The notes under the pieces were generated by a model. The model did not search any database, was not told the DNA's origin, and saw only the letters and a program-made list of their open reading frames with translations. Shown in pieces: positions 26,366-62,000 of a DNA stretch of 62,000 nt. Within the stretch, counting starts at the first letter, position 1. Each line of letters begins with the position of its first letter. Position numbers and translations under genes: made by a program. Origin of the DNA: Vicugna vicugna (taxonomy: Eukaryota); the NCBI GenBank assembly GCA_013265495.1, contig MU058213.1, positions 5,413,149-5,475,148 on the forward strand, read 5' to 3'.

Positions 26366-26546
26366 ACTCAGAAAGCTGGCCAGTGTCTCATGATGCCACA
26401 TAAGGGATTCTTCTACTTTCATGCACAGTCCTCTGAAATGTGGTCAATCTTTTCCTTAAACCTGGGAAGCCTTTGGGCAGACATTCTAATATCTCCTCTC
26501 CTCTACCTGAGGAAATGTCTTTATGCCTAGTGTAGATTCCTCCTAA

Positions 26547-26863: not shown

Positions 26864-27009
26864 CCTCCTAAAGCGTTCTGCCCATGCTCTTGAATCCCTC
26901 AAGCCGTGGACAGAGAACAGCTCATCACCATCGCCACACAACAGCTGAAATAGGTACCAAAGCAGGTAGGGAGAGCTGCACTGGCCTGCCCGTAGAACCT
27001 TCTTGAACA

Positions 27010-29605: not shown

Positions 29606-29922
29606 ACTGAGAAATCAAAATCCTTGGCCTATGCCTTATTGAGGTTCAAGTTTACATTACCAAGCAGGAGCAAACGCACAAACATCGTGGAGGGCTGTTT
29701 CCTCGCCCTAGTTTGCATGGTGTTCTCACAGAGAAAGCGGGCTGAATATGAATTCACGATCCAAAGTTTTAAAACTCACAAATAAGTAATCCTTCATGAG
29801 GAAGTGTTGCCAAATACAATAATTATGGTCCTTAGAATTACAATAACTTCTGACAATTAAATAATCTTAAAAGAAAAAATTAAAAGTATGCTTGAAAGAA
29901 AATTGTAACTTAAAAGAAATTA

Positions 29923-30029
29923 AATGTGACAATGAGTGTGTATATGTCCATGAATGAAAAATTGTGCTGAACACTGGAATTTGACACAACACTGTAAAAT
30001 GATTATGAATCAATAAAAAATGTAAAAAA
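29923..30029 (+). mobile_element. Very short 5'-truncated young L1 (3' tail) with 11-bp TSD
   Basis: Same 3' UTR as the 38326 and 42366 copies (ACACTGGAATTTGACACAAC...CAATAAAAAATG). AAAAGAAATTA at 29912-29922 and 30030-30040, at a TT/AAAA endonuclease site. Confidence 0.9.
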
Positions 30030-30941
30030 AAAAGAAATTATTTAAAATGTAAAGGGACTCAGCAGTTGAATTAAAAGACAAAAATAGTAAGATCTTTTGT
30101 TTTATTTCCTGATTTGAATGTTGTCCCATGGATATGTTCACTCTGTGAACATTTATATGGGTATCCTTTTATAATTATACACTTTCCTGAATGCATCATA
30201 TTTTTTATATGTTTCTAAAATACGTGTGTTTATACATAATTTATAGGCCAAATAAACTAGAAATATTTTAGAAATAAATCAATAAAACACTATATGTCAA
30301 AAGTTTGCGAATGTAGATAAAGCAGTACCTATAGAGAAGAAATTCATGACTTTAAATAATTATACCAATAAAGGAAAATCAATCAGCTAAGAAATTAAAC
30401 AAAGACATTAGGCAAAGAAAATAGTAAATTTCAAAGAATGTAGACGTTTAGGGAAAACATGCCTGAGAAATTGCAAGTATTAGCAGATCTTTTCGGTGTT
30501 AATTCGTCCTTGCCTGCATGACAGAAAGCCCATCTGCGCAAGTAGGACACCTGAGCCTTGACATTGCTTTTGGGCTTTGGTTGATCTAGGCAAACTCGGA
30601 CTTCAAGTTTGGTAGCCTCACGGAGTGACGGAAAAAAAAAAAAGTAACTGCCCAGGGCTCATCCTGAACCTGGGTCTCTAATAGAAAGCCCTTTTCCAGA
30701 TCAAGCTGGTTTCGAAAGACTACACACTCAGGGGAGGATAAACTATAAGTAAGTCTGCCCTGAACCCATCTGAGGGCACTAGTGAGGGCTGCCTTGTGCT
30801 GGCTGAGGTCAGCTGGTATGCAACTGACCTCCCTCAGTTCCTCCTTTTCCTCAAATTCTGGCCGGACAGTTCTTTATGATCTTATCATTTCTATAACACT
30901 TTTTTACTAGATTTTGAAATATGACTTAGGGAAAAAGTATA

Positions 30942-35199: not shown

Positions 35200-36730
35200 G
35201 GATTTCTATTTCTATAAGCCCATCTTCTTCATGAATATAGAGGCATAAGTTTAAAACAAAAAAATCAACAAATCAAAGCCAGTGACATATGAGAGGACTG
35301 TACATCACAATTAGGTAGTGATTATTGTAGGAGTTCAAGGGTAGTTTAATATCTGTGACTCAGTTCATGTAATTCACCACATAAATAATAAAAAAGAGAT
35401 ACTGATCATGTGAGCATCTCCATAGGTACAGAAAAAGCATTTGATAATTACTCTTAGCAAATTAGGAACAGAGGTAAACTTCCTTAATCTGATAAAGAAT
35501 ATCCCTATAACAATCTATAGCAAATGCCTTACTTCATGGTGGAATATTAAAAGCATTCCCTTAGAGACAGGAAGTGAAACAAAGATGGCTTCTATCTTAA
35601 TTTTTGTTCGCCACTGTATTGGTTCTAGTCAATGCAATAAGGCAAGAAAAGAAATCATAAGGATTGGGAAGAAAGAAATAATTCTACTTTATCCACAAAT
35701 GATATAGTTATGTACATAAAACTCTAAAAACATCAAAAGATGATTTCAGAATTATTAAGTAAATTTAGCAATGTCATTGGATACAAGATCCAAAACACTG
35801 CTCTTTTTATATGTCAGAATAAACAATTGGAATATGATAAATTGAAATGATCCCATTATAGTAGCATCAAAAACTTCAAACCTTAAGGAAAATACTAATT
35901 AAAAAGCACAGTATTATGTGACTTCCCACCCAAAAGAATGGTTGCAACAAAAAGTCAGAGGATACAAGATGGTGCCAAAGATCTGGAGCAACGGTAACTC
36001 TTCTACGCTGCTGGTAGGAGTGCGAATTAGGGTAACTACTTTGGAAAACTGGCACTAACCAGCACAGCTGAACATACAGGCACTCTGTGATCTAGTTCTT
36101 CCACTTCTAGGCCTATATCAATAGAAATGTACACATAAGTTCATTTTTAAAAAGTATAATAATGCTTACTGTAGCACTTCCAAATGTCCAAATATTGGAC
36201 AGACCTGAAGTGTCCATCAACATTAGACTGGATAAATAAAGTGTGGTATTTTCATATAGTAAAATACATTGCAGAAATAAGAAGGAATGACATATACGTA
36301 CATCAGCAACAGGGATAAATCTCACAAACATAATGTTGACCAATAACAAAAAAGCCAGCTACAATGGCGAGCATACCGAATAGTGACATTTACAGTCAGC
36401 CTTTCGTATCTGCAGGGCCAGCTGTAGGAGACTTGAGCACCTGCTGATTTTGGTTTCTGTGCTGGTCCTGGAACCAACTGAGAGTCAACTGTATATGAAA
36501 CTTAAAAAGAGGCTGAACTTATCTACAGTTTCAGAAGTTAGAAAAATTACCACATTTGGTAGAAAGCTGTAAGTAGGAGCCAGCAGGAGGGGACTTCCAG
36601 GTGGTGGTAAAGCTCTATTTCTAGAGATAAGTGCTGGCTGCAGAGGTGTGTTCAGTTATCAAACTTCTCACTAAAGATTTCTGCACTTTTTGAGTATAAC
36701 TATATTTCACTTGAAAGTTCTCTAGAAAGG
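35200..36730 (+). mobile_element. Old L1M fragment (ORF2 RT-region pieces to 3' UTR)
   Basis: ORF 35441-35707 gives TLSKLGTEVNFLNLIKNI (L1 ORF2-like); GCAGAAAAAGCATTTGATAA-like motif; 3' UTR to about 36730; internally deleted. Confidence 0.85.
36393..36491. mobile_element. MER2-like (Tc1/mariner-Tigger) miniature element nested in L1
   Basis: TA|CAGTCAGCC...GAGTCAACTG|TA with TA target duplication and imperfect terminal inverted repeats; internal GACTTGAGCACCTGCTGATTTTGG...GGTCCTGGAACCAA. Confidence 0.75.
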
Positions 36731-37029
36731 AAAGAAAAGGTAGAGCCTAAAGAAATCAGGAGGTCAAAGGGGATGATACAGGTAGACAGAAGGGAGGAAA
36801 CAGTAATGCTTCCATCTTAAAAAGTGGGGAGTCAATAGATATTATTATTAATGGAACAGGAAATGTAGGCTTAACTAATTTGAAGATGCAAAGGTGATGA
36901 ATCGAGAAACCAAGACTAGTATCAAAACTATAAAATGAGGGTGTGTGGGAGAAGGGGATGAAGTAACGGACTAAATCTTCATTTGTCATAGCAGAGAATG
37001 AATGGACAATGCCAAAACTAGATGAAGAA

Positions 37030-38325: not shown

Positions 38326-38579
38326 CCTGCACCCTGATGTTCATAGCAGCACTATTTACAATAGCCAAAACATGGAAACAGCCTAAATGTCCATCAACAG
38401 ATGACTGGATAAAGAAGAGGTGGTATATTTATACAATGGAATACTACTCAGCCATAAAAACTGACAACATAACACCATTTGCAGCAACATGGATGCTCCT
38501 AGAGAATGTCATTCTAAGTGAAGCAAGTCTGAAAGAGAAAGAAAAAGACCATATGAGATTGCTCATATGTGGAATCTAA
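38326..38579 (+). pseudogene. L1 ORF2p C-terminal remnant, uninterrupted frame
   Basis: CTLMFIAALFTIAKTWKQPKCPSTDDWIKKRWYIYTMEYYSAIK...FAATWMLLENVILSE is the canonical ORF2p C-terminus; no authentic start. Confidence 0.95.
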
Positions 38580-38886
38580 AACAAACAAACAAAGCATAAA
38601 TACAAAACAGAAATAGACTCATAAACATAGAATACAAACTTGTGGTTGCCAAGGGGGCGGAGGGTGGGAAGGGATAGATGAGATTTCAAAATTGTAGAAC
38701 AGATAAACAAGATTCTACTGTATAGCACAGGGAAATATACACAAGATCTTATGGTAGCTCACAGAGAAAAACATATGCCAATGACTATATGTATGTTCAT
38801 GTATAACTGAAAAATTGTGCTCTACACTGGAATTTGACACAACATTATAAAATGACTATTACTCAATAAAAAATGTTTAAAAAAAA
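38326..38886 (+). mobile_element. Young 5'-truncated L1 with 16-bp TSD
   Basis: TAAGAGGCAGTGATCA at 38310-38325 and 38887-38902; ORF2 C-terminus, 3' UTR, AATAAA and A tail. Confidence 0.95.
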
Positions 38887-41799: not shown

Positions 41800-44500
41800 A
41801 ACTAAAAGAAAACTTGATTTGAGGAGTTAGAAATAATTCAAGGACCAGAGAGTATCAAGACACAAGCAACCAACAAAGTTACCCACAACACAAGACAAGA
41901 CCACCTAAAATCAAAAGCGAAATATGAAAATGTACTATATTTATTATATATACAGTATAGTGCCAATATATAAATTATATATATGTATACAAACTCAGGG
42001 TTTGTTTTATATTATTGTTATTACATATGTACATAAAAGTTATGCTACCCTTTAGCAAGAATCAAAAAACAAGGCTTGAAATGATAAAAAAAGATTAAAA
42101 ACTTAACAGCAGGGCTAAAGATAAAATATAAGTCTTTTATAGTAAGCAGCCAAAACACAGATAGATAAGAAATATGTTAGGTAACATGAGACATGGAAAG
42201 AATATCTATCATTCTAGGAGGCCTATTATCCAATTAACAGGTGTTACAAAAAAAAGTGAAGAAACGGAGAGAAGGAATTTATTAAAAAATAATAGAAAAA
42301 TTCACCCAAAATGAAAATTTTAAGTCATCAGACAATGACTTTTGCCCAGTACAATAAAATTTCTGGTCCATCAACAGATGACTGGATAAAGGTGTGATAT
42401 AATTATGCAATGGAATACTATTCAGCCATATAAACCGACAACATAACGCCATTTGCAGCAACATGGATGTCCCTGGAGAATGTCACTGTAAGTGAAGTAA
42501 GCCAGAAAGAGAAAGAAAAATACCATATGAGATCGCTGAAATGTGGAATCTAAAAAACAAACAAACAAAACAAAAACATAAATATAAAACAGAAACAGAC
42601 TCATAGACATAGAATACAAACTTGTGGTTGCCAAGGGGCAGGGGATGGGAAGGGACAGACCGGGATTCCAAAATGTAGAATAGATAAACAAGATTATACT
42701 GTATAGCATAGGGAAAGATATACAAGATCTTGTGGTAGCTCACAGTGAAAAAAAAATGTGACAATGAATATATGTATGTTCATGTATAACTAAAAAACTG
42801 TGCTCTACACTGGAATTTGACACAACACTGTATAATGCCTATAACTCAATAAAAAGGTGTAAAAAATTTCTTTAAAAATAAAGTTAATATTCAAATCAAA
42901 AAAAAAATTTCTGAAAGATCCCCAACTAGACATACAAGACCAAGACCAGGAATAAAGAAATGCAAAGAGCCCCCATGGTGCTGGGTAGGGGGGCAGAGTA
43001 ACTTCCTACAAAAGACAAGAAACATTCTGACACTGCACTCCTCACAAGCAATACTGGATGTCAGAAAAGCTGGGGGGGAGTGAATTTTGAAGATAGAATT
43101 GTATACCCAGTCACGCTGTCAACCAAATATGATCCATCTGAATAATTTTTAGACAAACAAAGCCTCAAAAAACTGCGTCCTCCTTTCTTAAGAAGTTCCT
43201 TAGGGACGTACTCCAGAGAGAGAAGGATGCCGGGTGCAGGAAACAGGAAACCTACGAAGGTTGTATGGAGAAATCTCAGGACAGCTGTTCAGAAGAGCGA
43301 GAGGTCCTAACTCAGGTCCGGGAGCCAGGACAGGACAAAGACAGGCGCTCTGCAAGAATGGCTACATCTGAAAGGGTTACCAGACTTGGGGCTCTGGGAA
43401 AGGCACACTCTTCTCTTTGCCAGAAAGGAAAGATGAAAGAGAGGGAGGGAGGAAGATTTGAAAAAGAAAGATAAAAGATGAGAAACAGCAAGAAGACCAG
43501 AGGCTATACAAGAAGGTCGTGATCCAGACACAAAGCAAATGAAAAGTGACACAGTTTTAAATAACCACTTGTCTGAAAGGAAAGAAAAACCATTGACCTT
43601 GATGCTGCAGCGTCTGTTCCCTCTCACGTAGCCCATAGATCCTGACACCGGCCCGTGGAGCAGTGCACAGAGCCCCAGGATACTGCCCCTCCCTGCAGTG
43701 GGCAATACTTAGGTAACCATAATAATGCAAATGCCTTTTCTGCGCGTTACAACTTTTAAAATCAAACCATAGAGAAAGCAGGGAAGCCTTTATTACAGTT
43801 GCAGAACTGAATGCAAATCTTATGAATGTTAGTAACGTAGAAGGAAAGTGTGGCTGGCAGAAGGGGCTCTAGGTCAGTTCAGTGAGTTAGTCGGCATCTC
43901 CATGCGAACGGAAGTGCCGAGGAGGAATCCAAAGCAATCACGTCACTACAAAACACCAAAATCCTAAATTTGGTAAATTCATCACATTTGCTATTCATCA
44001 CATCGCATTTTAGAGAACTGGGCTACTTCTTAAAGGAGGTAAGCGATTAAAGAGAAAAGAGTGATACCTGAAGGGCAGAAGATACCGACTGAAGGTGAAA
44101 GAGCAAAAATGAGAGGTTTTAAAATTACAGGTATTGAAAGTTTGAAATATCAGCATTAGAGGAATTTTTAGAAAATAATATAACCATCCAACATCCGGAG
44201 GGGAAGAGGGAGGGGAAGTACCAGGCCCTGGGCCCTAAGTCCTCATCTGTCATAACAGGGAGTCGGCAGCATGTTCTAAAGGCGAGGAAATGAGGCAAGG
44301 GTGATATAAGCTTATTATTTTGAATTACAGAATAAACCACAGAAGAGTGAAAAAGAGTGACAGCCAATGAAGTTTGCCTCCAGAGGATGAGGTGAGGGCT
44401 TGGGCAAGGCAGGCCAGGAGATGGAGCTTTTCAGTGTAAGACTGCTCTTGCAATTCTTCCTTTATATCCAGTGCATCAGCTGTGTCAGAAATACTTTCAG
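41800..44500 (+). mobile_element. Ancient L1M fragments (ORF1 region onward) hosting a younger L1
   Basis: ORF1-like GAATTTTGAAGATAGAATTGTATACCCAG (about 43082) and CAGCAATACTGGATG-type motifs; very degraded, boundaries approximate. Confidence 0.55.
42366..42903 (+). mobile_element. Young 5'-truncated L1 with at least 10-bp TSD
   Basis: Colinear with 38390-38880 (GTCCATCAACAGATGACTGGATAAAG...). AAAATTTCTG at 42356-42365 and 42904-42913. Confidence 0.92.
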
Positions 44501-47095: not shown

Positions 47096-47741
47096 TATAA
47101 TAATTTAGATTCATTTGCCAGAGTCGGCTTTCCACAGGATGCTTTTCGAGGCCCTTTTGAAAATCCAAACCAACCCCAGAAAGTGCTGTAACCACGAGCA
47201 TCACTAGGAAACCTTATGCATGTACTCACTGATGCCAGACATGCTCCCCATGCATTATCTCATTTAATCCTAGCAAGAGCCCCATGAGATAAGGGTGCCA
47301 GCCCCACCTGACAGACAAGGAAAGAAAGAGACTGGTGGTGGCAGAAGCAGGATTGGAACTGAGGCAGGTGTGTCTGGCTCCAAATCTTTGGGGCCCAAAA
47401 CCTTCACCACGATGCTGCAATGCCTCCCTGACCCCAACTGAGTCTTCTCAAGCATACACAAGAAAAACTCCAGGGGGCAGTTTTAAGCATTTAAAAGTCG
47501 TATGATTTTCACTTATCCAAAATAATTTCATTTTTAACATCAGCGCATCAGGTTTTTTTTTCATGAGGACAAAGTTCCCTTTGTCACTTTTTCCAATTCT
47601 TTTTATTCTGATAAAATACACATAAGTTTTGATTCCTTAACCATCTTTAAGTGTACAGTTCTCCCTCTGTCTTTTGCAGTTAAACAGGTCTTCTGCAAAG
47701 CCCAGACACGCCTCTAAAGGTGGCTGGATTACTACTAAGGC

Positions 47742-48435
47742 TGTGATGACACCTTCCCTGGCTAAGAGCAGAAAGGAAAAACCTGGAATAAGAAATGTTC
47801 ATAGACCAAGGGCAGTGGGCTTGGCAAGGTGAGTGGAGTGGGCAGGTGAGACGGGAGGTGGGGGAGGGCACAACCAGTGAAGGAATGACACCGCAAGGGA
47901 GGGCAGGACAGACTGGTTACAGCCAGGATGGCGGAAGATTTGACTTCCAGTAGACCTTGAGCCTCAAGGCACACCCACGGGCACCACGACAGTTCTAGGC
48001 TGCTTGTAAAAGTCAAAAAGTAGGTGGGGGTCGGGGGCATCCAATTCCCTGGAAATTGTTGCTCCTTCCCCAAACTAACTGGAATAATCTTTCTACTCAT
48101 TAGCATGTGAACCGAACCCATGAAAACTAAAACTTTGCACCTCCTGGTCTCTCTCTTTTCTGAGACAACCCGCACTTTGTCTATGGAGTGTGTGTCTACT
48201 TTTACTTTGAACTAAACACCCCAACACATTTCGGCCTCTCTCCCTCTTGCCTTCTGAGACAGCCTCCATTCTGCCTATGAAGTGTGTGTCTCTGAAGCTG
48301 TTTTCCCTTCTGAATGAGACAGACCCCACTCTGTCTATGGAGTGTGTATCTCCCTGAATAAACTTGCTTTCACTTCGCTATGCCTTGCTCTTGAATTCAT
48401 TCCTGCACGAGACAAGAACCTATTCTCCAGCAACA
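47742..48435 (+). mobile_element. MER41-like ERV1 solo LTR
   Basis: 3' end AATAAACTTGCTTTCACT...TTGAATTCATTCCTGCACGAGACAAGAACC...CAACA is MER41-like; three internal ~37-bp repeats. 5' TG placed at 47742 tentatively. Confidence 0.75.
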
Positions 48436-49429
48436 CAAGGTCCCCAGGGTTGTGCCTGCACTGATGGCATGTTTGGATGGCAGCTCTTAGCTGGGTGGCA
48501 GAGGTCATGAATGCAACAGGGCCTGTGCAAACCTCTACAACGTTTCATCGAGGGACAGTGTACTGTACAACTTTCCTTCCTGTCTTCCCAATCTTTAAAT
48601 TACTGTCAAGTCCTCAAGTGAGGATCGTGATAATAAACCAAAAGAGAGCAGAAACCATCTTGGGTTGCGTGTGGATTACCAGAATGGCAGTTATGGGAAA
48701 GCAGTCCCCTCCACCCTACCCTCTGCAGGCAACGAAGAACTTACAGTCCTGAAACTTTATCATTAACCACCTGGTGACCCCCCAGCAATGTCCAAGATCC
48801 AGGTGAGGTCACATTTTCTATCTTTCACTACTTTAGACATGTTTTAACAGAAAGGGTTACAAGATGGTGTCCTTAAAATCACTGCAGAGACAGGAGGACA
48901 GAGTCGTGGGACAGTGGAAGGAGCCTCCTTGGATGAGGGGCCCCCATTCATCCGCTCTCACCTGCTCACCTGCAGCCAGCTCACTTGCAGCTCTGCTCTG
49001 CAGATAAGCGCGTCAAAACCGGGTCAGACTTTCAAGATGGAACGAGGAATTCCACAACCCTGGCAATCTGTCCAGTCTCCTCCACGTGGCCCACACAACC
49101 TACCCCACCACACAGAGGAGATCTAATGCCTTGCCCTCCTCGGGGTCCACAATTACTGCTCAAATGCCACTGGGAACAACAGTGACCCAAAGCAACCCCA
49201 GACACCCGTGGGCATCTTCAGGAAATTCTCTCCAGCTTTCCAGTCAGAATGTGAGACCCATCTGAGATGAGGACTAGATGTCTCTCTCTTCTGCTACAGG
49301 AGCTCCCCTGGAGTCAAGGGTGTTACAATGTGAGGCTAATTACTGTAGCCTTTTAATATTCTCTTCTCCGAAGCCCTCCCGGGAAGGCTAAAATAAAACA
49401 CTGCATGGTAATAGGTGAAATGAACGGCG

Positions 49430-49610
49430 GACTGGGAACCTTCAGTAGCTGCGCGACCTTGGACAAAGCAGTTGACCCGGACTTGTGATCTCATTAACAC
49501 AAAAGAGAGAGAGGGAAAAGGCCCCTTCCTCTCGCGTGCCAGGGTGCGGAGGCTCCGGCCGGAGCCGCGCCGTCAGCACACCCGAGGCGGCGGCGCGCCT
49601 GTGGGGGAGG
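49430..49610 (+). mobile_element. GC/CpG-enriched MIR remnant
   Basis: AGTAGCTGCGCGACCTTGGACAAAGCAGTTGACC aligns to MIR ACTAGCTGTGTGACCTTGGGCAAGTTACTTAACC; the downstream part is very GC-rich. Confidence 0.5.
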
Positions 49611-50200
49611 CAGCGCCTGGCAGTTCTCCCCGACACACGCCCCGCAAGTTCCGTTCAGCTGACAGCCTCAATTTTATTTGCCCAATGACTTCTGTTTTGC
49701 TTTCGTTGTGAACTATATCCTATGCACAGAAGGGTGCAAAAAGCTTATGTACAGTTTAGAAACTAACAACAACATGAACACCTGTGTATTTGTCACCGGC
49801 AAAGCCCATGAACAATTCCCAGGAAATAAAAATAGAGTCTGGGTAAGAAAATAAAAGCTAACCTTTTTTTCCTTTCCTTTGTGCTTAGCCTAGTTTCACT
49901 TGCTCAAAGGGTGTCGCCTGCAGAGGCCTTGCTCGCAACATTTCAGTCCAGTTCCTGGTACGAACTGGCTGCTGGGGGCCGCTCCGCGGAGGACCGAGGG
50001 CAGAAGCCCTGGGCGCCGCACGACAGTCCAAGATGGCGGGGCCGGCCGTGTGCAGCCGCGGCCCGGGCACTGCCGTCTGGGGCGTGAGCCGCGTGCCTGC
50101 GCCTGCGCCTGCGCCGCGAGACCCCCGCCCCTCCCCACGGACGCAGGCCCCGTGAGGCAGCCCCGCCCACAGCCTGTCCAGGAAAGCGTGGACTCTAGGG
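49530..50200. promoter_or_regulatory. Bipartite CpG island, candidate promoter
   Basis: About 29 CpGs by hand count in 49961-50190, plus a CpG-dense patch at 49530-49655. YY1 CAAGATGGCGG (50029-50039), NRF1-like TGCGCCTGCGCCTGCGC (50098-50114), GC boxes (50123-50131, 50161-50168). Confidence 0.65.
49670..49790 (-). mobile_element. Extreme 3' end of an antisense L1ME-type element, split by an LTR
   Basis: TGTGAACTATATCCTATGCACAGAAGGGTGCAAAAAGCTTATGTACAGTTTA...TGAACACCTGTGTA; continues at 50330 (CACCACTCAGG...). Confidence 0.7.
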
Positions 50201-50325
50201 CCAGAGCTCCCAGCTCTCCATTCTCTGATCAAAGAATAAAGGCTTCCTTTGCTTCTGAACCAAACTCACTGTCATTCTGTTGGCTCCAACGACCCCGGCA
50301 GGAGGATCCTTGCTGGTCGGTAACA
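49791..50325 (+). mobile_element. ERV1-type solo LTR (535 bp) with perfect 4-bp TSD
   Basis: TGTCACCG...CGGTAACA inverted termini (7/8); TATT at 49787-49790 and 50326-50329; AATAAA at 50235-50240; no primer-binding site after the CA. Confidence 0.85.
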
Positions 50326-50329
50326 TATT

Positions 50330-53300
50330 CACCACTCAGGAATAGAAATAGACTCTTACCATGCCTTGAAAGGCCAGCGTGCCTCCTCAAGACCACTTTC
50401 TCCTTCCTCTGCAGAGCTAACCTTACTAGCCTGATTTTTGTGTTAATGGTTCTGTCTTGCCTTTTCTTATCACCTGTGAATATGCCTCTAAAAAAAGAGA
50501 TAAATTTTGTTTCTGACATTTATGTCAATGCAGTCATGCTGTGATGACTTCATCTGTGACTTGCTTCTTGTGCTGTTTTGTTCCTAAGATTCCTTTGTGT
50601 TATCGAGGGCAGCTGTGTGCGGTGTGTTCCTTTTCACAGCTATATCGCATTGCTTTCATATCCTGAGTCAAACATAACAGAATTTATGCATTCATTGTAC
50701 TGTTGATGGGCATTTGGGTTGTTCCCAGTTTGGAGCCATTAAGATCAACGCAGCTATGACTGCCCTTCCATGTGTCTCCTGGCACACGTGTGTAAGAGCT
50801 TCTTCAGGTACCTGTGGAATTGCTGGGCCACAGCGTTGCTAGGCAATACCAGGTGAGGCTATCCTGTCTGTCAAAGTGGTTGTGCCGATTCATATTCCCA
50901 CTAGCAGTTAGTAAGTTCCTTGCACACCCTCAACACTACCAATTACCACCTTGGTGGTTGTTTTTGTTAATTTGTTACTGTAACTTGGCTTCTCATTGTA
51001 GGTGGTAATCTTTTGATCTTCTGTATGAATTTAAGACTCTGCTGGTCATGTTCTATCAAAAAAAAAAACCAACTTCCTACTGGAATTTCATTAACTCTAT
51101 AGATCAAAAACGGAGGAATTAACATTTGACATCGTTATACTGTTTTTTCTATTCAAAAATCTGGTACACATGGTGTATATCTGCATGGTTTTAGGACCAA
51201 GACTTTAGGACTAAAGTCCATCAGTAAGGTTTTAGAGCTTTATCTATAAAGATTTACATCTCTTATAAATTTATTACTAAGCATTTCATATTTTTATTGC
51301 TAGTATAAACTTTCTTTTAAACTTACATTTTTCTAGTTGCCTCTGGTATATAGAAACGCAACTGATTTTTATTAACAATTTTATATGCAGACATCTTGCT
51401 AAACTCTTATTAACCCTAATGATTCATATATAGATTATTTTGGAATTTCTACACCTGCAAATAGTGACAGTTTTGTTTCTTCCATTCCAACTCTTAGAGT
51501 TTCCATTTCTTTCTCTTGGTTCACTACCCTAGCTATGACCTCCTGTACAGAAGTGGGCCTCTCTATCTTATCCCTTGAACTTGAACTTACGATTCTTAAT
51601 AATGACGTTTGCAGTAGGTTTTCAGGAGGTCATTTTCCAAATTAACAAATCTCTCTTCTATTCCTAGTTTGCTTTAAGTGCATTCCAGAAGTTTTAAAGC
51701 ATCATATTCAGTTCTGTGTATTTTTAAATTTCCATTATGACATCTTCCTTGATCTGTGAGCTTTTAAAGTGTGCCTTTTGTTTCCAAATGTAAGGTTTTG
51801 TCTCATTATATTTTTGTCATTTGTTTCTAACTTAATTGCATTTGAAATTTATTCATAGGAAATTCCATGAGTGCTTAAAAAGAAGCAATAATCTCCGACT
51901 GCAGAGTGCAGGGTTCTCCATAGGCCCGTTTTATCAAGTTTATTAGCGTGTTCTTTAAATCTTCTATATCCTTACTGATTTTTATCTGTTCATTCCATGA
52001 ATTACTGAGAGAAGTGTGTTGTAATCTCCCACCAGCATAGGGGATCGGTCTGGTTTCCCTGGTAGTGCTGACATTTTGTTTGCTTTGTGTATTTTGAGGC
52101 TATGTGCACACATATAAATTTCGTATTATATATTAGAACAAAAATATATGCTTTATTCTATGTAAGTGGTACCTCATATATGTCATCTATTATATATATA
52201 TCTTACAAGCTTAGAATTATTACTTATTTTGGAGAAATTAAGCATTTTGCCATTATGTGGTGCCTTTTTTATCACTCATAAAGCTGTTTGCCTTAAGTCT
52301 GCTTTTTTCTGCTATTAACGTATTTTTCCATCATTCTTTTGACTTGCACTTGCCTGTTAAATCTTCTCCTGCCCTTTAACTTCTGATATTTCTTCATCCT
52401 TATGTTTGAAAGTGTCTTGTGTAAACAGCATATGCCAGATTATATTTCTTTATCCAGATTATCAATTTTTGTCTTTTAACTGAGGATTTCAGTCCTGTTT
52501 TATTTATAGGAATTACTACTGCATTTGAATTTATTTCTAACATCCTGCTATGTGGTTTATACTTGTCTCACTTTTCCTCTTCTCCCTTACCCTACTTTTT
52601 GTGAATTAAACAAGATTGCTTTGGTTTGTATTTCATCATCTTGTTTGTTTCGAAGTGATCATATCCGTATCTTTTTGTGGTTTGCCCTAAAATTTTAAGA
52701 TGCATTTTTAATAATTCTAAAATTAATATTTTAACTCCCTCTTGAAAAATTCAAGGTTTCTAATTTTTTTTTTTCAGATTCCAGTTATCTGCCCACCTAA
52801 TCTAATGCTTGTTTTGTCTGGTATTTTACTTCTAATATGCTTTTTATTCCTGAAAATATAACATTTTTTATTATGTTATAGTGTTAAGGTTTATTTAGAT
52901 TTAAGTTAAGTTTAATTTATTTTTTTTAATTTTTCTTAAAAAAATTTTGGGGTTATTTATTTTTCTAGTGGAGGTGCTGGGGATTGAACCCAGGACCTGG
53001 TGCATACTAGGCGCGCACTCTACCACTGAGCTATATGCCCTTCCCCCAAGGCTAATTTATTTTTATCTACGCATTTATGATGTTTCTGTTCACCATTCCT
53101 TCTCATATCTCTTATCTTTTAGACTACCTTTCTCTTACCTAGAGTTTATTATGTAGAATTCCATTCCGTGGGGATCTTCTGGTGGTAACTATCCGTTAAA
53201 CTGTTGTTTATTACTTTTATTTGAAATATCTTTACTTTGTCTTCATTTTTTGAAAAAATCATTTGGCCACATACAGAATTTTTGTTAAAAATTATTTTCT

Positions 53301-54590
53301 CTCAGCACGTTATACCCTCGGGCTTCCGTTGTAGAAGCCAGCACTAACCTCTAATTGCCATTCTTTTACAGAAGGTCCATCTTTCCTCTCTGACTGCTTT
53401 TAAGATCACCCTTTTCTTTATTCTGTAATTATTCTAATGTGTCTAGGAGTGTGTTTCTTTTTATCTACCCTCCTTCAGATTTGTTGAAGATTAGTGTCTT
53501 TCAAGAATTCTAGAGGATTCTCAGCCATTTTCTGTTGAAATTAAATCCCCTCCCCATATCTGACTGAAATCTTTCACTTTGTCCTCTTTTTTTCTTTTTT
53601 GCCTTCCACCCCCATTTTAAAATTACTTCCAAATGTATACCCATGATAATGCCACTGCATCCATCTCCATTATTTACCTCTAATTATATCTAGTTGTCTG
53701 GTTACTCTATCCATTGAGGTTTTAATTTCAATTCATATATTTTATTTTTCAAAAGTTATGTTTTTTTTCCCAGTCTACTTGCTTCCTGACCAAATTTTCC
53801 AGCTTTCCTCTTCTATCTTTAAACATGTTTTGCACAGTTATTTTACATTCGGTGTTCAATAAATAATGTCTGACGCTCTTGCTGATCTGTTTTGACTTTT
53901 TTGTGTTTTGCTTTTTTGCTGGTTCTTATGATCCTAATACTTCATTACCTTGTGTGTTTAGTGATTTTTGACTATAAGCTGCTCATTCTCCTTGGACATA
54001 ATCTGGAAATTCTGAGAGGACTGGGCTGCAGCCGGATTCCTCCAGAATACATTTATGTTTATTCAGTTGGTCAAGTGAGGTATTACCAAACTGAGATCAC
54101 ATTGAATTTTCAGATTTAGATATTTAGGACCACACAAGTGGTATTTGCATTTAAACTGCAGACACAAGTGAGGGTCACTTTATGCCAGGCCAAAGTGATT
54201 ACCTGGGTTGAGACAGACAAGCTTTCTTGCTCCTCTTTCTCTGTTCACCATAAAACATGTGTAACCTTTTGGGATTCCAGCTTTATTTAAGGATCTCCTA
54301 TAGGTACCCCACCTTGGTCAAGCCTGGACTTAAACTCTTGTATCCCATCCCCATACAATCTCCAAGGCAATAGCCCAAACTGTCCGCATCTGGCAGAAAC
54401 TTCCAGGGTGAAAGCAAGCTTTGGTATTCACTTACCTCCCAGAGCTCCTGGTTTCAGTTTGTTAGGGAGCTCCATGTCAGCTCAGAGATGTGTTTTTAAG
54501 ATTTTAAAATATATTTTGTTCAACATTTCAGTTGTTTTGGATGGGAAAATTACTCTGGCTATCTAATTCACTCTATTGCTGGAAAGAGAA
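50330..54590 (-). mobile_element. Long ancient antisense L1M (3' UTR, ORF2 and ORF1/5' pieces, fragmented)
   Basis: GATGGGCATTTGGGTTGTTCCCAGTTTGG, AAATAGTGACAGTTTTGTTTCTTCC, TCTTGTGTAAACAGCATA and CTCTGACTGCTTTTAAGAT motifs in L1 antisense order; T-rich plus strand. Confidence 0.8.
52925..53047 (-). mobile_element. tRNA-derived SINE (Vic-1-like)
   Basis: Minus strand GGGGGAAGGGCATATAGCTCAGTGGTAGAG...GGTTCAATCCCCAG; imperfect TSD AAG(TT/GC)TAATTTATTTTT at 52908-52924 and 53048-53064. Confidence 0.88.
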
Positions 54591-54829
54591 ATGATCAAGC
54601 TGGTTTATTTTTAGCCAAGGCTAATTTCTGCATCACTCTGCACCTGTGAACCGGAACCAATCTGCATGAGTGTGCATTCCTTTTCTGGCTAAAAAGAATT
54701 TTCAGAGAGGCTAACCAACGGACTTCTGTTGGAGAAAAACACATAGCACGCCAGCCTACCCGTCCCAGAGGCTCTCAGAAATGACAATTCTAGCCTACAT
54801 TTGAAACTATCACATCAAATGTGTTCATA

Positions 54830-55070
54830 ATAATACCTAATGTTCATCAGGGTAAGGCTTATTATCATTTGTAAAACACTAGGTGTATGATATGCATTAT
54901 CTCAGTTTTCACAACAACCCTCTGAGCTAAGTATTATTATTAGTCCCATTTTACAGATGAGAGAAACTAAAGAGCAAAACGGCCAAGTAATTTTCCCAAA
55001 GAATGCAGTGGAAACGGGAGACAGTTGGGCTCCAGCACACATGTCCCTAGCCTTACTGTTAGGCTGTCTC
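54830..55070 (-). mobile_element. MIR
   Basis: CACAACAACCCTCTGAGCTAAGTATTATTATTAGTCCCATTTTACAGATGAG. Confidence 0.8.
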
Positions 55071-55159
55071 TGTCAGAAGATAAGCAGTCAGTGAAAAACT
55101 AGCTTCCTGAGAAATATGGCCCAAATTAGATGATTCAGGGGAGATTATTCCTCTAGCAC

Positions 55160-55335
55160 TAGGTCTCTCAATCTGAGCAGCCCATCAGAGGTACCCAGGG
55201 AACGTTTTCAAGACACACTTGGCTCCTCCCAAGAAGAGATTCAAATTTAGTTGGTCTGGGGTGGGGCCCCAACATCTTTATTTCGTCAAGCCTCCCCAGG
55301 AAGTACTGGTGAATTCCCTTGATTAGAATCACCCC
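55160..55335. mobile_element. MER5-like DNA transposon remnant
   Basis: GAGATTCAAATTTAGTTGGTCTGGGGTGGGGCCC...CCTCCCCAGG. Confidence 0.55.
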
Positions 55336-56689
55336 TCTGTGGGTTATTCGGGGCCACCACGCTGGATAGCTTCCTCTCTCCCTTTGTTCATGTGTGAGGA
55401 CACTTTACCAGGTCTCAGCTTCCCAGAAAAATGGGTGTTGGGCAAGAAAGAGTTGTCATCTCACTAGCCACCACCTGGATGTCCTCAGGCAGTTAAGACT
55501 CGGGTTTCTGAGTGGCACTGAATAAACCCAGGCTCTTTTGGATCAGCACCGTGTATCAGCAGGTCAGGGCTGGGGGAAGGGGAGTTCTGGCCTAAAGTAG
55601 TCATGGGATGGCTTACGCACTCCATATAGCCATCACTCCGTATGTGTGGATATTCGGGAGTGAGAGTCACTGTGAGATGCTGCCACCGAAGTGGTCCTGA
55701 ATGGTCTCCAGCACATTTTCTGTCTCTGAAAGCCCATCTTCTCTCTATCCTAGTTAAGTGCTTAAGAAAAGCAAGAAGTACAATTTAACTGGGGAAGAGT
55801 CACTAAGGGACAAAGTCCTAAAAAAGAAGGAGACCCAGATTGAGAATGCCACCCACCTCCACACACACACCCTTCTGTCAAGGCTGCTGAAGCCATCTGG
55901 GCAGAAAGAAGCTGCTTTTAAGGAATTTGGCTTTGTTGGGCCTGCATATAAAATTCCAACACAGATGTTCCTTGGCAACCTGGCACCTGGCTTCTCTGGA
56001 CAACACGGCAACAACTCTCCCTCCCTGGCTGGTTCTGGCCTTGGGTTTGCATCACCAACTTGGTCCTTCTGTTCAGCACCTCTGTCCCGAGCCCTCCTAA
56101 CTGCACTGGATCCCTTCCAAGAGTAACCAAATACTTCACCACTGGGCCGAGCCTGGAATCCCTCCTCAATGCTCCCTGCCCTGTGCTTCATAGGGTTTCT
56201 CAGCTCTGCTCTGTTCTCTCACAGCATCCCCAGCCCTCAGAGGTCAGGGGCAGGAGTCACTCCATGTGCAGTTATAAAGGTGCCAGGGGAACATGCTGAG
56301 CTCTCTGAGGACCCCTGAGAAGCCACAGGCCATGATGCACAACCCAACCTCATCCACTTCGGGCAGGACTCCCCTCAGAGGTAACCCGGCTTCGCCACCA
56401 GCCCCAAGCCTGTCTGGATCACCGGCTGAGCCTGGCCGTATCTCCTAGACTCCCAGACCTCCTGTGGCTGCCTCTGTAGGTGAGCCCCAGACAGGTTATC
56501 AGATCTCAAGGACAGGGCTCAGCCAATACTCTGCTTCCCTCTCAGCAGACAGGCCTTAGACAGGCCTCTGGACACAGGGCTGGAGGGGGGAGTGGCAGGG
56601 GGACTGGAGGCCAAGAGGACCCGGTTCTGTCTCAAATGAGCCCATGTGCTTAGTGTGTTACCTACAGCATCGTAAGGGCTCATTACCCC

Positions 56690-56925
56690 GGGCTATTACT
56701 GCGGAGTGCTAGGCGGCAATGGTCTTCAGATACCGTGTGCAACACTCTACATATACTCTCCACGAATCCTAATAAAGTTCCTGCAGGATGGGTATTATTA
56801 TCATCACAATTTTAGAAGTTTAGAGAAAGTGAAGTAACTTGTCCAATGTCACACAGCCAGTGACAGAGTCTGGATCCAAATCCAAATGGGTCCAACTCCA
56901 AAACTGGACCCTTGCCTACTACTCC
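56690..56925 (-). mobile_element. MIR
   Basis: GGGTATTATTATC...AAGTGAAGTAACTTGTCCAATGTCACACAGCCAGTG. Confidence 0.7.
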
Positions 56926-57974
56926 AGGTTGTCATACCTCCTTTACAAAATGGCAAGGTTCTCACTGCACTTGCTTCTTAAAATGACTAACAAAGTACTT
57001 TTTTAAAGTCTTAAAAGAGCTGTGAGGGAAAAGGCCAAATGACAATCATTACAGTCAGTGTGATTACTGTAACTGAGAATAAAACTGCCCTGGCCGCTTC
57101 ACAGCCCAAAGAGGGAAATAAAGTGGGTGAAACTTGTCTTCCTGGGTCCTCCCTTTCTGGTGGCTCTTGCTTCCACCACACTAGCAGCTAGCTCTCTCCC
57201 TCTTCCAGAAGGTTCTAGTGCCCAGTGCTTGATCCCCACCCAGAGCAGCAGCCCGTGCCTCACCCCATCTCTCTTCCCTCAGCCTGCCAGCCATCGGTAA
57301 TCATTTTTTCCTATATTCTGTGCATGCATAAAAATAAGAGAATAAGCTACATGCAATAAAGGACAGATGTGGGCAGCACAGGTAAGTACAGGGCACAGTA
57401 GGGTGAAAGGACGAGTTTGAGGTTTAAACAGGAAGGGCAGCAGGCACGTCTCCAGTGCAGGAAACATCTCCCATGGTGGGCAGGGGTATGAGGGAGAATT
57501 CAGAATGTGGGTATCTTTGGAGACCCTACATCATGTGCCCTAGAGCCCCTGTCTGCTCTACCATGGGTTGAGTTGCTCATTCTCTCTTAACAAGTCTGTA
57601 CAAGGTCAAGCAAGTTTCACTAAATAATCCTGGAAGAACAGGGCTGCTTCCCGGGACAATGAATCTGTTTCCTACTGTTCTGGTGCACAGGGCAAAGGCA
57701 GTTAATGAAATCCTATATACAAGGCAGAGTAGGTCAATCTGTGCTTCCTAATTCCTTGAGACTGAAGGTATTTTGAGCCTGAGAATCCATAGCATTTACT
57801 GTAGACTCAATCACCACGTCTCCCACTACTATTAGGAGCCACCATCTCACACAAGTACCGGACACTACTGAGTTTGTTGTCTAGGTTCTTTTGATTTTAA
57901 GGAACAAAGTCATAAAGAAGTGCTCTTTGGTAGCAATGCCGTGGAGTGGTGAAGAAGGCAGACTCTTCCACGGT

Positions 57975-58256
57975 GCTTCAGCCAGATTTCTCCAGAGAAA
58001 TAGAACTAATAAAGGCAGGAGTTGATGCTGCAGTCTTAAGGCAGCATTTCTTCTCTGGGAAACCTCAACTTTTTCTTTTAGCTGATTGAATGAGGTCCAA
58101 CCACATTACTGAGGGGGAAATACCCTTAACTTAAATTCAACTGATCGTTAATGTTAAACGCATCTACAAAATACCATCACAGCAAAACCTAGATTAGAAT
58201 TTGGTTAAATAACTGGGCAGTATACTAGTCAAACTGACATAAAACCAACCAACACA
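57975..58256 (-). mobile_element. MLT2-like LTR, internally deleted
   Basis: TTCTCCAGAGAAATAGAACTAATA...TGATTGAATGAGGTCCAACCACATTA...CATCTACAAAATACC...CCTAGATTAG. Confidence 0.75.
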
Positions 58257-59224
58257 CATGCACATCTGGGAACAGGAGTCATCATGGCCTCACGGAGGCA
58301 GAAAGGAAGGTTTTCCACACCGACTAGTACCCAGACATTAACGTGACTCAGCCACCTCCTCGTGTCTCCTCTTTTCCCAAGTAGCGAGTTCTTTTTGAAC
58401 GTTCAGTTCACGTTTCTAAGAGAGAAAATCTATTTATTGAGGCCATTTTTTCATACTAGACAACATTAAGGCCATTGTGGGGACAGACTGTCCTAGAGTC
58501 AGGCAACCTCCCCACGGCTCAGTCAGTGGTTACTCCCGTGCAAAGACCAGCCAAGGGCTCCGTCTCAGAGCAGGTGGCTGGAGGCCCAGGAGTTTGAGCT
58601 CGAGGAGAACACGGAACACAGCAGACGCCTTACTGCCCACCTGCAACACATCCTTCTGTCTTCACGGCTCCCACCCAGCGTTCCAAATCATAACACACAC
58701 AGCTGCACACAACTCACCTGCTCCCAGCAAGGAGACAATCAAATGTGCACGTCCTGCAGGTATCGTGTGCCACGGCCATGTCACACCGCCACTGACAAAG
58801 CTGTTTTTCAGCATCAAGCCCACGATCTCCTGAGGGTACTCACTCTCCTTGTGTTCCCTCTGCTACCATTTCTAGGGGTTATTCCTCATTATTTCGCAGA
58901 CTCAGGGCAAATGGTGAATGTCACCACCACCAATGCACCTGATAAACATGATGGAAGGAAAACAGAACATTCTTAAGCTGGCAGTAGCTAAAATAATAAC
59001 ATCTGTCTTGTTTTATAAAAATGGTGGTGGCAGAATAGGGTATAATTCCTCAATTTTCAGACACTTTAGCAAGGAGGGGAAAATAAACCTGAAAAAGAGG
59101 TAGGGTATGCCCTTAATTCTACAATTGATCCTGAGGCTGTAGTTAATGGACATCTGTAATTCCCTTCACTCATCTTCCAGGTTCTCTTTGTTTTTTGCCC
59201 AACTGAGTGATTCTACCTTTTGCT

Positions 59225-59665
59225 ATCAAGAAATCTCTTAGCTGCAAATAACAGAAAATCCAGATAACAGTGGTTTAAATACAGGGATTTGTTTTTCTCA
59301 TGTAACAAGAAATTGAAAGCAATTTCTGGGGTAGGTTTGGTTATAATGTCAGGTCTCTGGGTCACATCTCCACTCCACTCCTGCCCTTTGCCTCACGATC
59401 ACAAGATACCATCATGGGCACCTTGGCCATGTTCACAGCAGGAAGACTAGCGAGAGAATGGCACTGGCTAGCGGCTTTTCATCCGCAAAGCCACAGCTTT
59501 CCTCTGGGCTTCCAGCAGGCTTCTCCTCCCATCTTCTTGGCCAGAACCACATGAGGTGACAACTCCTGCTACACTGGAAGCTGCGAATCACGTATCTAGC
59601 AAAGGGAGAGGGGAACATTATAACTGAGTTAAACCAAATGCAATTCTTTAGCTGGGTCATGACAG
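59225..59665 (-). mobile_element. Old MLT1 (J/K-like) LTR
   Basis: TAGCTGCAAATAACAGAAAATCC...AGTGGTTTAAA...TCTCATGTAACAAGAA...TTGGCCAGAAC. Confidence 0.65.
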
Positions 59666-61299
59666 ATTACCTTCTTTCAATCAAGATGAACAAGAAAGAG
59701 GTGGGGGAAGGGTCGCTGATACACCTGCTTACCTGGTGTAGTCTGTTTTCTGTTGGCCTTGACAGTCCCCTGCCCTCTGTTTGACAGCAGTGCCTCCCCT
59801 GGATAATCAGCATAGGGCTCCTTTGCCAAGACCCTGTAGGCTCAGCATTTATCACAGTCTAGTCCTAGTTCTAGTTCTGTAGGATTTTACCCTGTGTCTC
59901 CATGGAACTGTCTCTCCACTGGGTAGGGAAACTTCCAGACCAACAGAGTCCAGCCACAGCGGTGAGACTGCATCATCGGGTGTAGGCGTGAGCAGCCTCC
60001 GGTGTCCACCTGCAGGTTCCTGGCTGTGGGAGAAGACGGCATCGTATAGAGAACTGAGAATTATTAATGAACTCACAGTTGCTTTTTCTCATTATCTATT
60101 TGCTCAACCAGTCATTACCAAGCAAGAGTTACATGAGTGTCTGTGAAATGGTTTTGACTTCCAAAAGGGTTCCTGACAAGTGAACGAAGATGGAGGCTCA
60201 CTGATCCAGCGGGAAGACGCCCAGCAGTGAGAGGCTTTGTGTGTTAAGCCTGGCCCTGCGGCCGGCTAACCAGCTGTCTACTAACTTACTAGGACCTTAG
60301 GATTCTAAACTCCGGATCCTATCACTTTCAGGGTTAAACTTTCCTGCTCTTCTTAGCTGGCTTTCATTTTAGGCACTAGGGGTGGACATCTTCTCATTTC
60401 CCCTTGAGGGGATGGGCTTTCTCTCTGGACTAACTATTCAGAATGTTGCAGCAGCCTCCCCGTGGTCGTCAGTCATCCTGTATATTCACAACTTCTATTT
60501 TCAAAAATTAGAAAAAGAAAAAAAAAAAGGAAGGAGTTCAGTTCAAAAAATCTTAAATCCCCCACCAAAGAAAAATAAAGCCACTTGACACTATCTGGAT
60601 ATTACCGGGGCCTTTGACCCTCTAGGCTAATTGGCAATGCATCAAAAGAATCACAAGGTTCTAACAGAATTCATTAACGCCAAAGTTCATTTATTCACAC
60701 ATGGTGCAGAAGTGATGGTGTACCATGGCGAAATAAATCTTCATTTAAAAAATAAATGTCAAGGCTGTTTGAAGATTTTTTTAAAAAGTTAATTCTTTGG
60801 GTTTTTAGGCCTCTCCTTTTTCCTCATGGATGGTTACACAGTGTGCTACAAAGAGCCCAGAGCTGGGAATCCATCATCAAAACCGCCTGGCTGCAGTAAC
60901 TGTGTGGTCCTAACCAAGTCCTTTTACACTCATTAGCTTTAAAACAGAAAGAATAATAATGAACACTCAGGGCTTTGGTGAGAATAAGATCACACCAGAA
61001 AAAATACGGTAGTAAATGCCAAAGTTTTTGTGATAAAATAATGTAATTAAAATTAAAAACTCCTTATGAACTAATATGGAAATGGCGAAAAAAGAATAGT
61101 TTGCAAACTATATGATTTGTGATTAACAATTTTGTTTGAAGTTCAAAAGATTCTCTACATCTGAGTTTTTAAAGATATGTTTGCCAAAGTTCAAAGCAGC
61201 TGAACTCACATAGTTACACACACGCGCACGCTTCTTTAGTAGGATTTTAGATGTTTGTTTTCATTGATCCAGAAAAAGAGGGAAAATAAATTCTTTTCA

Positions 61300-61488
61300 A
61301 TACCGTCATTGTAGTTACTGTTTTACAGGGGTATATGTAAGTCAAAACTTACCAAATTCTACACTTAAAATACAGGCAGTTTATTTATTTTTTAAATTTT
61401 TTTAACGTTTTTTATTGATTTATAATCATTTTACAATGACAGGTAGTTTATTATGTATGAATTATACCCTAATAAAACTGTGAAAAAA
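61300..61488 (+). mobile_element. Old L1M 3' end interrupted by a young antisense L1 tail
   Basis: GTCAAAACTTACCAAATTCTACACTTAAAATACAGGCAGTTTATT|...|ATGTATGAATTATACCCTAATAAAACTG. Confidence 0.75.
61386..61438 (-). mobile_element. 53-bp young L1 3' tail with 14-bp TSD
   Basis: Minus strand CATTGTAAAATGATTATAAATCAATAAAAAACGTTAAAA matches the tails of the 29923 and 38326 copies. ACAGG(C/T)AGTTTATT at 61372-61385 and 61439-61452. Confidence 0.85.
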
Positions 61489-61506
61489 TGACCTCCTAAA
61501 AGGTCA
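61489..61506. promoter_or_regulatory. Perfect nuclear-receptor everted repeat ER6 motif
   Basis: TGACCT-CCTAAA-AGGTCA read directly; function untested. Confidence 0.35.
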
Positions 61507-62000
61507 TTTAACACAGAGGATTATATCCTGGTTGACTCACTCTTCTGGCTTCCCTCTCCTGCATTTTCCTTCATTCCTGGAAATTTTCTGAGGGAACCCT
61601 AGCCTTGAGCTGCTTCCAGCTGGAGTTGGCCTGAGACCAAGACTTCACTACCACCTCTGCAGTAATGAGGGGGGAAATGAAGACCGGGAGTCTGGAAGAA
61701 TCTCTGTTCCTGGTGGGAGCTCAGCTGTGAACTAGCAGGTGGGAATAGAACCAACCAGCTCCTGCCCACTTCTGGAAATCCTGACTCAAACGCTTAGCTT
61801 GTCTTTCTCCAGGGATTCAGCAGCACAGGGCAGGCTGTCAGCACATTCCCCAGGGAAATAGATAGGGGTGGGAGGTAGGGGATGCGAAGCATTAACAGGG
61901 CCTGAGTTCAGAGTCTGATGCAAAAGCAAGAAAAGTCTGGTCGCCTTGAAATCCGTGCCTCCCAGCATCCTTCCCCTTGTCCTGATGCTTGGCTGCAGGG

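What the first reader, a model, noticed from the sequence alone, without database searches (positions are those of the whole stretch)
49791..50325. The window's only CpG-island core is a solo retroviral LTR: candidate exapted promoter
Seen: TG...CA termini with 7/8 inverted ends, a perfect TATT TSD and an internal AATAAA. The element splits an old antisense L1, whose halves rejoin (...CACCTGTGTATT|CACCACTCAGG...). Its middle holds about 29 CpGs in ~230 bp with YY1, overlapping NRF1-like and two GC-box motifs, while the other four ERV1-type LTRs here are CpG-poor by comparison. Established: LTRs are normally methylated and lose CpG; YY1, NRF1 and Sp1 together typify active TATA-less promoters; 4-bp TSDs typify ERV1. 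Inference: this copy has stayed unmethylated in the germline and acts as a promoter for an unannotated lncRNA or an alternative first exon. A strong plus-strand donor TGG|GTAAGA lies at 49843 and a weaker GGC|GTGAGC at 50084.
Basis: partly seen in the sequence, partly recalled or inferred. Interest (0 to 1): 0.72.

Follow-up and report, generated by a model that had tools for sequence, protein, structure and literature searches.

The report
CpG-rich retroviral remnant beside CpG patch
A leftover retroviral end-piece in this mammal's DNA still has a CpG-rich promoter-like middle, but a second CpG patch sits just outside it and nothing found shows that the host uses it as a promoter, so it is most likely an ordinary case.

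Summary
The solo LTR at 49791-50325 is real: TG..CA ends, TATT duplication, AATAAA at 50235, inserted into an antisense L1-like repeat whose halves are contiguous on another copy. Its core has 29 CpG in 231 nt with YY1, NRF1-like and GC-box motifs. It is not the window's only CpG core. A second cluster (49420-49660, 23 CpG, o/e 0.91) lies outside the LTR and includes a MIR-like piece with mildly raised CpG. The four CpG-poor LTRs show no homology to it, so they are no control. The core's CpG count also fits a methylated copy that lost 20-30%. Both named donors are ordinary and lie upstream of the LTR's expected start. No family copy was obtained and no reads were laid. Best reading: a GC-rich viral U3 inserted beside an older small CpG patch, kept by local germline hypomethylation, with no host use shown (0.45). 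Rivals: young and methylated (0.25), GC-biased gene conversion (0.15), exapted promoter (0.15). A new member of a known kind.

The parts
49791..50325 (+). Solo LTR, class I (ERV1-like) by its 4-bp duplication and end motif; family not identified
   Evidence: Ends, duplication and AATAAA; 35 CpG, GC 60%, o/e 0.72; shares the ending GGTAACA with the LTR at 22457-23114. The class label is recalled, not tested against a repeat library.
49787..49790 (+). Left target-site duplication TATT
50326..50329 (+). Right target-site duplication TATT
49960..50190 (+). GC/CpG-rich core of the presumed U3 region
   Evidence: 29 CpG in 231 nt, GC 77%, o/e 0.85, CpG/GpC 0.76 against 0.32 in 34 GC-rich tiles elsewhere in the window, p 0.0006
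50030..50038 (+). YY1-like motif AAGATGGCG
   Evidence: one other in the window, at 26845; binding not tested
50099..50114 (.). Two overlapping NRF1-like motifs within a short CCTGCG tandem
   Evidence: the only two in the window; binding not tested
50123..50168 (+). Two GC boxes (50123, 50161)
   Evidence: 0.9% of core shuffles give two
50235..50240 (+). LTR polyadenylation signal AATAAA; fixes the plus orientation and places the expected sense start at about 50190-50215
   Evidence: the start position is inferred from general LTR layout
49920..50030 (+). Possible internal repeat, 31 nt at 49920 and 50000 (22 of 31 identical); the copy nearer the core has G/C for A/T at 6 positions and the reverse at 1
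   Evidence: borderline (13 of 300 shuffles over all spacings, 6 of 500 for this pair); the 6:1 count is read by eye from the aligned pair
49420..49660 (.). Second CpG cluster, outside the LTR
   Evidence: 23 CpG, GC 65%, o/e 0.91; 49530-49660 has 18 CpG, GC 75%, p 0.003 against GC-rich tiles elsewhere
49447..49531 (+). Piece of an ancient SINE (MIR-like; name recalled) with mildly raised CpG
   Evidence: Aligns to positions 49-135 of the majority sequence of 11 window copies, 0 of 1000 shuffles; 3 CpG in 85 nt against 5 in 847 (p 0.014, post hoc); A/T>G/C: G/C>A/T = 14:5 against 100:81 (p 0.15)
49661..49790 (-). Left half of the interrupted L1-like repeat (its 3' end); AT-rich, 1 CpG
   Evidence: Aligns to 36639-36766 (2 of 300 shuffles); substitution direction 8:6; left boundary approximate
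50326..51200 (-). Right half of the interrupted L1-like repeat (continues further right)
   Evidence: Antisense matches to 15545-15833 (E 4.6e-9), 36001-36636 (E 1.1e-5) and 38340-38430 (E 0.012); direction 22:22; o/e 0.26 over 50326-51000

Best explanation
A class I retrovirus integrated about 120 nt inside the 3' end of an old antisense L1, right beside a small pre-existing CpG cluster, and recombined down to a solo LTR. The GC-rich U3 with YY1, NRF1-like and GC-box motifs is the virus's own promoter equipment. The LTR core and the older cluster share a promoter-like patch with low germline methylation, which has slowed CpG loss in both. Weak two-way initiation is possible, but no host function is shown. 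Shown: the anatomy, the two clusters and the SINE piece. Inferred: order of events, methylation state, and inheritance of the motifs from the virus.
For: The only two strong CpG clusters in 62 kb lie 300 nt apart; a 500-nt zone on each side of the LTR is 1.6% of the window. The outside cluster overlaps an ancient SINE piece with more CpG than 11 other copies, which points to long-lived local protection. The repeat DNA between and right of the clusters shows no A/T>G/C bias (8:6, 22:22). Gammaretroviruses favour promoters and CpG islands as targets (PMC4176367, passages). SP1 and YY1 sites are enriched in many HERV LTR types (PMC5529029, passages). Hypomethylated islands influence flanking CpG sites and neighbouring islands (PMC4509998, passages).
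Against: No methylation, chromatin or family-copy data. The 299 nt between the clusters hold only 4 CpG, and the LTR's own 5' and 3' parts have o/e 0.36 and 0.34, so the patch is not continuous in sequence. The SINE signal rests on 3 CpG and is post hoc. The origin of 49532-49660 is unknown. The core's count does not require protection. That the outside cluster predates the LTR was not tested.
Confidence: 0.45

Rival explanations
1. The LTR is simply young or from an intrinsically CpG-rich family, and is methylated and silent. The neighbouring cluster only explains where it landed.
For: Losing 8-12 CpG from a start of o/e 0.99-1.05 gives the observed 29. Duplication, ends and AATAAA are intact. 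Young LTRs are CpG-rich and silenced by methylation (PMC6071641); they easily meet the island definition (PMC12582260); LTR12 is CpG-rich yet heavily methylated (PMC11853044); all read as passages.
Against: Intact ends are a weak clock: the CpG-poor LTR at 22457-23114 has equally intact ends. No look-alike of the LTR was found in the scan's earlier windows (sensitivity about 90% identity, 131 windows of this genome), mildly against a large young family. The stretch is held at 0.89 in a second organism label (1 row).
Confidence: 0.25
2. GC-biased gene conversion at a promoter-type recombination hotspot rewrote the middle of an older LTR and the neighbouring DNA from A/T to G/C, creating both clusters and perhaps the motifs.
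For: The LTR core is 77% GC between parts of 44% and 52%. The possible internal repeat differs 6:1 towards G/C on the core side (borderline). The SINE piece leans 14:5 (p 0.15). The process is described in dogs and many placentals (PMC4350167 abstract; PMC11161765 passages). Unchecked notes of this scan report it elsewhere in this genome; these are a lead only.
Against: The L1 pieces between and beside the clusters show no bias, and the AT-rich gap of 299 nt is untouched, which a single hotspot should not spare. The idea that the SINE continues, rewritten, through 49532-49670 failed: no better than shuffles (645-824 of 1000 reach it) and no transition excess.
Confidence: 0.15
3. One reading: the LTR has been exapted as the promoter or first exon of a spliced host transcript and is kept by selection.
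For: Intact motif cluster beyond shuffle expectation. Two RNA runs of one study hold 0.30 and 0.26 of the words of 49400-50500. ERV1 LTRs are over-represented among TE-derived starts in humans (PMC12963367, passages).
Against: Those two runs' contigs total 937 and 839 million letters against 2016-2151 for the 14 best holders, so such shares could be background (inference). The other 4 RNA-place rows hold 0.05-0.10. Both named donors are ordinary and lie upstream of the expected sense start. I recognised no gene or exon in the window by reading it (no gene finder run). 0 of 3 open frames over the LTR match Pfam. Human TE-derived starts tend to be narrow, TATA-type and CpG-poor.
Confidence: 0.15

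Closest known systems
CpG-rich young human LTRs such as LTR12C/ERV9 solo LTRs (PMC6071641, PMC11853044; passages read)
   Same: Solo LTR with high CpG density and SP1-type sites, able to act as a promoter.
   Different: Non-primate host; family unknown; no homology tested; here an independent CpG cluster lies outside the LTR; methylation state unknown.
TE-derived transcription start sites, ERV1 class (PMC12963367; passages read)
   Same: Full-length ERV1-like LTR with general promoter motifs including YY1.
   Different: Those are defined by capped 5' ends linked to downstream exons, which are not shown here, and they tend to be TATA-type and CpG-poor.
Repeat-derived CpG islands of 200-400 bp and neighbouring-island effects (PMC12582260, PMC4509998; passages read)
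   Same: Short island-like stretches made largely of repeat DNA; two clusters close enough to influence each other.
   Different: Two different origins side by side (retroviral U3; SINE edge plus unassigned DNA) separated by an AT-rich gap.
CpG islands made or enlarged by GC-biased gene conversion at PRDM9-independent hotspots (PMC4350167 abstract; PMC11161765 passages)
   Same: Non-genic CpG cluster over repeat fossils.
   Different: No A/T>G/C bias in the flanking L1 pieces; only weak hints in the SINE piece and the internal repeat.

Membership tests
Solo retroviral LTR | TG...CA ends with short inverted repeats | tested here: met
   7 of 8; not unique by itself, 8 such spans in the window
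Solo retroviral LTR | 4-6 bp target-site duplication flanking a single LTR | tested here: met
   TATT on both sides; range from PMC4176367
Solo retroviral LTR | Clean insertion into continuous host sequence | tested here: met
   Flanks end at 36636 and resume at 36639 on another L1-like copy, 1 of 12 references tried
Solo retroviral LTR | Poly(A) signal near the 3' end; no partner LTR nearby | tested here: met
   AATAAA 90 nt from the end; no second copy in the window
ERV1 (class I) family assignment | Homology to a named ERV1 LTR family | not testable with these tools
   No repeat library or whole genome available; no relatives found. The link of 4-bp duplications to ERV1 is recalled.
CpG island (Gardiner-Garden and Frommer) | At least 200 bp, GC over 50%, CpG o/e at least 0.6 | tested here: met
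   49797-50311 (o/e 0.72) and, separately, 49343-49788 (o/e 0.83)
Germline-unmethylated island | Low methylation in sperm or oocytes | not testable with these tools
   No methylation data; the sequence fits either state
Exapted LTR promoter | Capped transcript start within the LTR joined to downstream exons | not tested
   Only word shares of RNA runs were seen; no reads were laid
Exapted LTR promoter | This copy keeps CpG and motifs better than its family; purifying selection | not testable with these tools
   No paralogues or orthologues obtained
Exapted LTR promoter | Usable splice donor downstream of the LTR's start | tested here: inconclusive
   The named donors lie upstream of the expected sense start; downstream GT sites of 6-8 of 9 exist (50316, 50788, 50808, 50853) but such matches are common
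GC-biased gene conversion tract | Excess of A/T>G/C over G/C>A/T substitutions | tested here: inconclusive
   Not met in the L1 flanks; 14:5, p 0.15 in the SINE piece; not testable in the LTR core

The most novel reading that the evidence does not exclude
The LTR landed beside an old orphan CpG patch and took it over as a two-way promoter. An antisense start near 50045-50060 would have YY1 just downstream and NRF1 and both GC boxes 40-120 nt upstream, all in their preferred positions. It would transcribe leftwards, past a donor at 49862 (7 of 9), towards the older cluster. The resulting open chromatin would keep both clusters unmethylated and feed GC-biased conversion. That would be a lineage-specific antisense LTR promoter maintaining its own island.
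Probability: 0.1. Interest if true: 0.45.

Novelty: new member of a known kind. Interest (0 to 1): 0.22.

Why it matters
If the best reading holds, this is a small example of a retroviral LTR keeping its CpGs by sitting next to an older protected patch. It also warns that CpG density compared across unrelated LTRs cannot show exaptation. If the promoter reading held, it would add one lineage-specific LTR promoter to a class with thousands of human members (26,056 TE-derived starts, PMC12963367). Either way it changes no general view.

Tried and rejected
No whole genome is held for this window. No read-level data were obtained, so expression and family depth stay open. A 20-nt LTR motif gave 1 locus in viral contigs and 8 in metagenome contigs; 9 of 9 match only 20-23 nt and are chance. 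Look-ups of earlier findings by place, sequence or relatives were empty, as was one by words. A profile of window SINE copies first missed 49420-49520 in a whole-window search and gave only a marginal 32-nt hit locally; pairwise alignment then found 85 nt. The idea that the whole outside cluster is a rewritten SINE was rejected: tolerant scoring also scored the reverse complement (24-27 of 1000), and the anchored extension failed. Homology of the LTR to the four other LTR-like elements: none. Eleven of 12 reference stretches did not give both L1 flanks. A Pfam test of the L1 frames was not completed. Open frames over the LTR: 0 of 3 Pfam hits. Rfam on 47500-62000 found only a tRNA-like SINE. 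The bacterial promoter scan is irrelevant to a mammal. Nine literature searches showed no paper on this locus, but the family is unnamed, so this is weak. No supplements were read; repeat libraries in supplements of PMC8605555 might name the family.

Full report
Observation. The element at 49791-50325 begins TGTCACCG, ends CGGTAACA (7 of 8 inverted), is flanked by TATT on both sides and has AATAAA at 50235. That terminal pattern alone occurs 8 times in the window for spans of 300-800 nt, so it needs independent support. The flanks give it. Aligned separately to another L1-like stretch in the window, the right flank ends at 36636 and the left flank starts at 36639 (4 of 300 and 2 of 300 shuffles; this was 1 of 12 reference stretches tried). 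The right flank also matches three L1-like stretches in antisense. The names L1, MIR and ERV1, and a camelid-like look of the young L1 ends and SINE, are recalled; no repeat library was available. The core 49960-50190 has 29 CpG, GC 77%, o/e 0.85, with the YY1-like, NRF1-like and GC-box motifs where stated; all three types together occurred in 0 of 3000 shuffles, with the caveat that they were picked after viewing.

The LTR is not the only CpG core. A second cluster at 49420-49660 lies outside it, with 23 CpG and o/e 0.91. The best 200-bp windows hold 27 CpG (LTR), 20 (outside cluster) and at most 10 elsewhere. Both clusters exceed the CpG/GpC ratio of 34 GC-rich tiles elsewhere (p 0.0006 and 0.003). 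They are separated by 299 nt with 4 CpG. The four other LTR-like elements, which I delimited by eye, have o/e 0.24-0.30 and GC 43-51% but show no homology to this LTR, so they say nothing about its family. One of them, 22457-23114, has equally intact ends, so intact ends do not date a copy.

The outside cluster. Its left part, 49447-49531, aligns to a majority sequence of 11 ancient SINE copies from the window (0 of 1000 shuffles), although a whole-window profile search had missed it. It has 3 CpG in 85 nt against 5 in 847 for the other copies (p 0.014, post hoc), and A/T>G/C versus G/C>A/T changes of 14:5 against 100:81 (p 0.15). I tested whether the SINE continues, rewritten, through the GC-rich 49532-49670; it scored no better than shuffles and showed no transition excess, so that part stays unassigned. 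The L1 pieces show no directional bias (8:6 and 22:22).

Does CpG density show an unmethylated copy? No. If the core began at o/e 0.99-1.05, losing 8-12 CpG gives today's 29. Young LTRs are CpG-rich and mainly silenced by methylation (PMC6071641, passages), easily meet the island definition (PMC12582260, passages), and LTR12 is CpG-rich yet heavily methylated (PMC11853044, passages). SP1 and YY1 sites are enriched in many HERV LTR types (PMC5529029, passages; NRF1 is not mentioned there). The deciding comparison, with other copies of the family, could not be made: no genome is held, a motif scan gave 9 of 9 chance loci, and look-ups of earlier windows were empty.

Promoter geometry. The AATAAA fixes the LTR on the plus strand and puts the expected sense start at about 50190-50215 (inference from general LTR layout). 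Both named donors lie upstream of it, and both are ordinary: 49843 matches 6 of 9 consensus positions like 561 of 3123 plus-strand GT sites, and 50084 matches 5 of 9 (no weighted splice model was available). NRF1 and Sp1 sites work upstream of a start, YY1 sites just downstream, and NRF1 downstream of a start represses it (PMC11269187, passages). A plus-strand start before 50084 would therefore have NRF1 on the wrong side. An antisense start near 50045-50060 would have all three motif types in their preferred positions; the strand preference of YY1 was not checked. This is a prediction, not a result.

Sequencing runs. Of 24 rows listed for 49400-50500, 14 hold 0.89-0.99 of the words (6 studies, one row a possible source; 13 rows organism A, 1 organism B from the same study as that row). 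The LTR is half of the stretch, so it is present in those samples; the list is ranked by share, so fixation is not shown. Two RNA runs of one study hold 0.30 and 0.26, four more 0.05-0.10, and four rows hold next to none. The two best RNA runs have 937 and 839 million letters of contigs against 2016-2151 for the top 14, so such shares could be background. No reads were laid, so which part is held, its strand and any junction are unknown.

Mechanism. Most likely (0.45) a class I retrovirus integrated beside a small older CpG patch, a target type favoured by gammaretroviruses (PMC4176367, passages), and collapsed to a solo LTR whose GC-rich U3 has been partly protected from methylation by that neighbourhood (PMC4509998, passages). 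Against this: the gap and the LTR's own ends are CpG-poor, and the order of events is untested. Rivals: young and methylated (0.25); GC-biased gene conversion (0.15), described in dogs and many placentals (PMC4350167 abstract; PMC11161765 passages), raised by unchecked notes from this genome, weakly hinted by a borderline internal repeat that differs 6:1 towards G/C and opposed by the unbiased L1 pieces; and true exaptation (0.15). I recognised no gene in the window by reading it, and 0 of 3 open frames over the LTR match Pfam.

Novelty. Solo LTRs with CpG-rich promoters and TE-derived starts are a large known class (PMC12963367, passages). A survey of camelid transposable elements (PMC8605555, passages) did not help name the family. 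Nine searches (listings and abstract starts) showed nothing on this locus. Verdict: real element, overstated claim, new member of a known kind, interest 0.22.

Noticed in passing
window 49532-49660: GC-rich core of the outside CpG cluster (about 75% GC, 18 CpG) with no YY1, NRF1-like or GC-box match and no assigned origin; possibly the real host regulatory element here.
   Followed up: partly
window 48957-48990 and 48728-48811: Three close minus-strand donor matches (48961, 48969 at 8 of 9; 48984 at 7 of 9) and a plus-strand exon-like stretch ending in an 8 of 9 donor at 48803; could be chance.
   Followed up: no
window 19009-19473 and 22457-23114: Two related CpG-poor LTRs, about 68% identical over 300 nt; the second has a perfect TCAC duplication.
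   Followed up: partly
window 47742-48437: Older LTR-like element with three internal repeats of about 54 nt, 1.3 kb left of the finding; o/e 0.26.
   Followed up: partly
window 21656-22213: LTR-like element with no clear duplication; weak antisense match to 59215-59570 (E 0.019).
   Followed up: no
window 38389-38884 and 42366-42866: Two 5'-truncated copies of a young L1-like 3' end, 86% identical and 4 kb apart; shorter tails at 29922-30036 and 61392-61438.
   Followed up: no
window 52947-53053 and 18727-18834: Two tRNA-derived SINE copies, 81% identical; the first scores as tRNA in Rfam.
   Followed up: partly
window 26513-26880: Mildly CpG-rich stretch ending in the window's only other YY1 9-mer (26845, minus orientation); looks like the 5' end of an old antisense L1 (recalled).
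   Followed up: no
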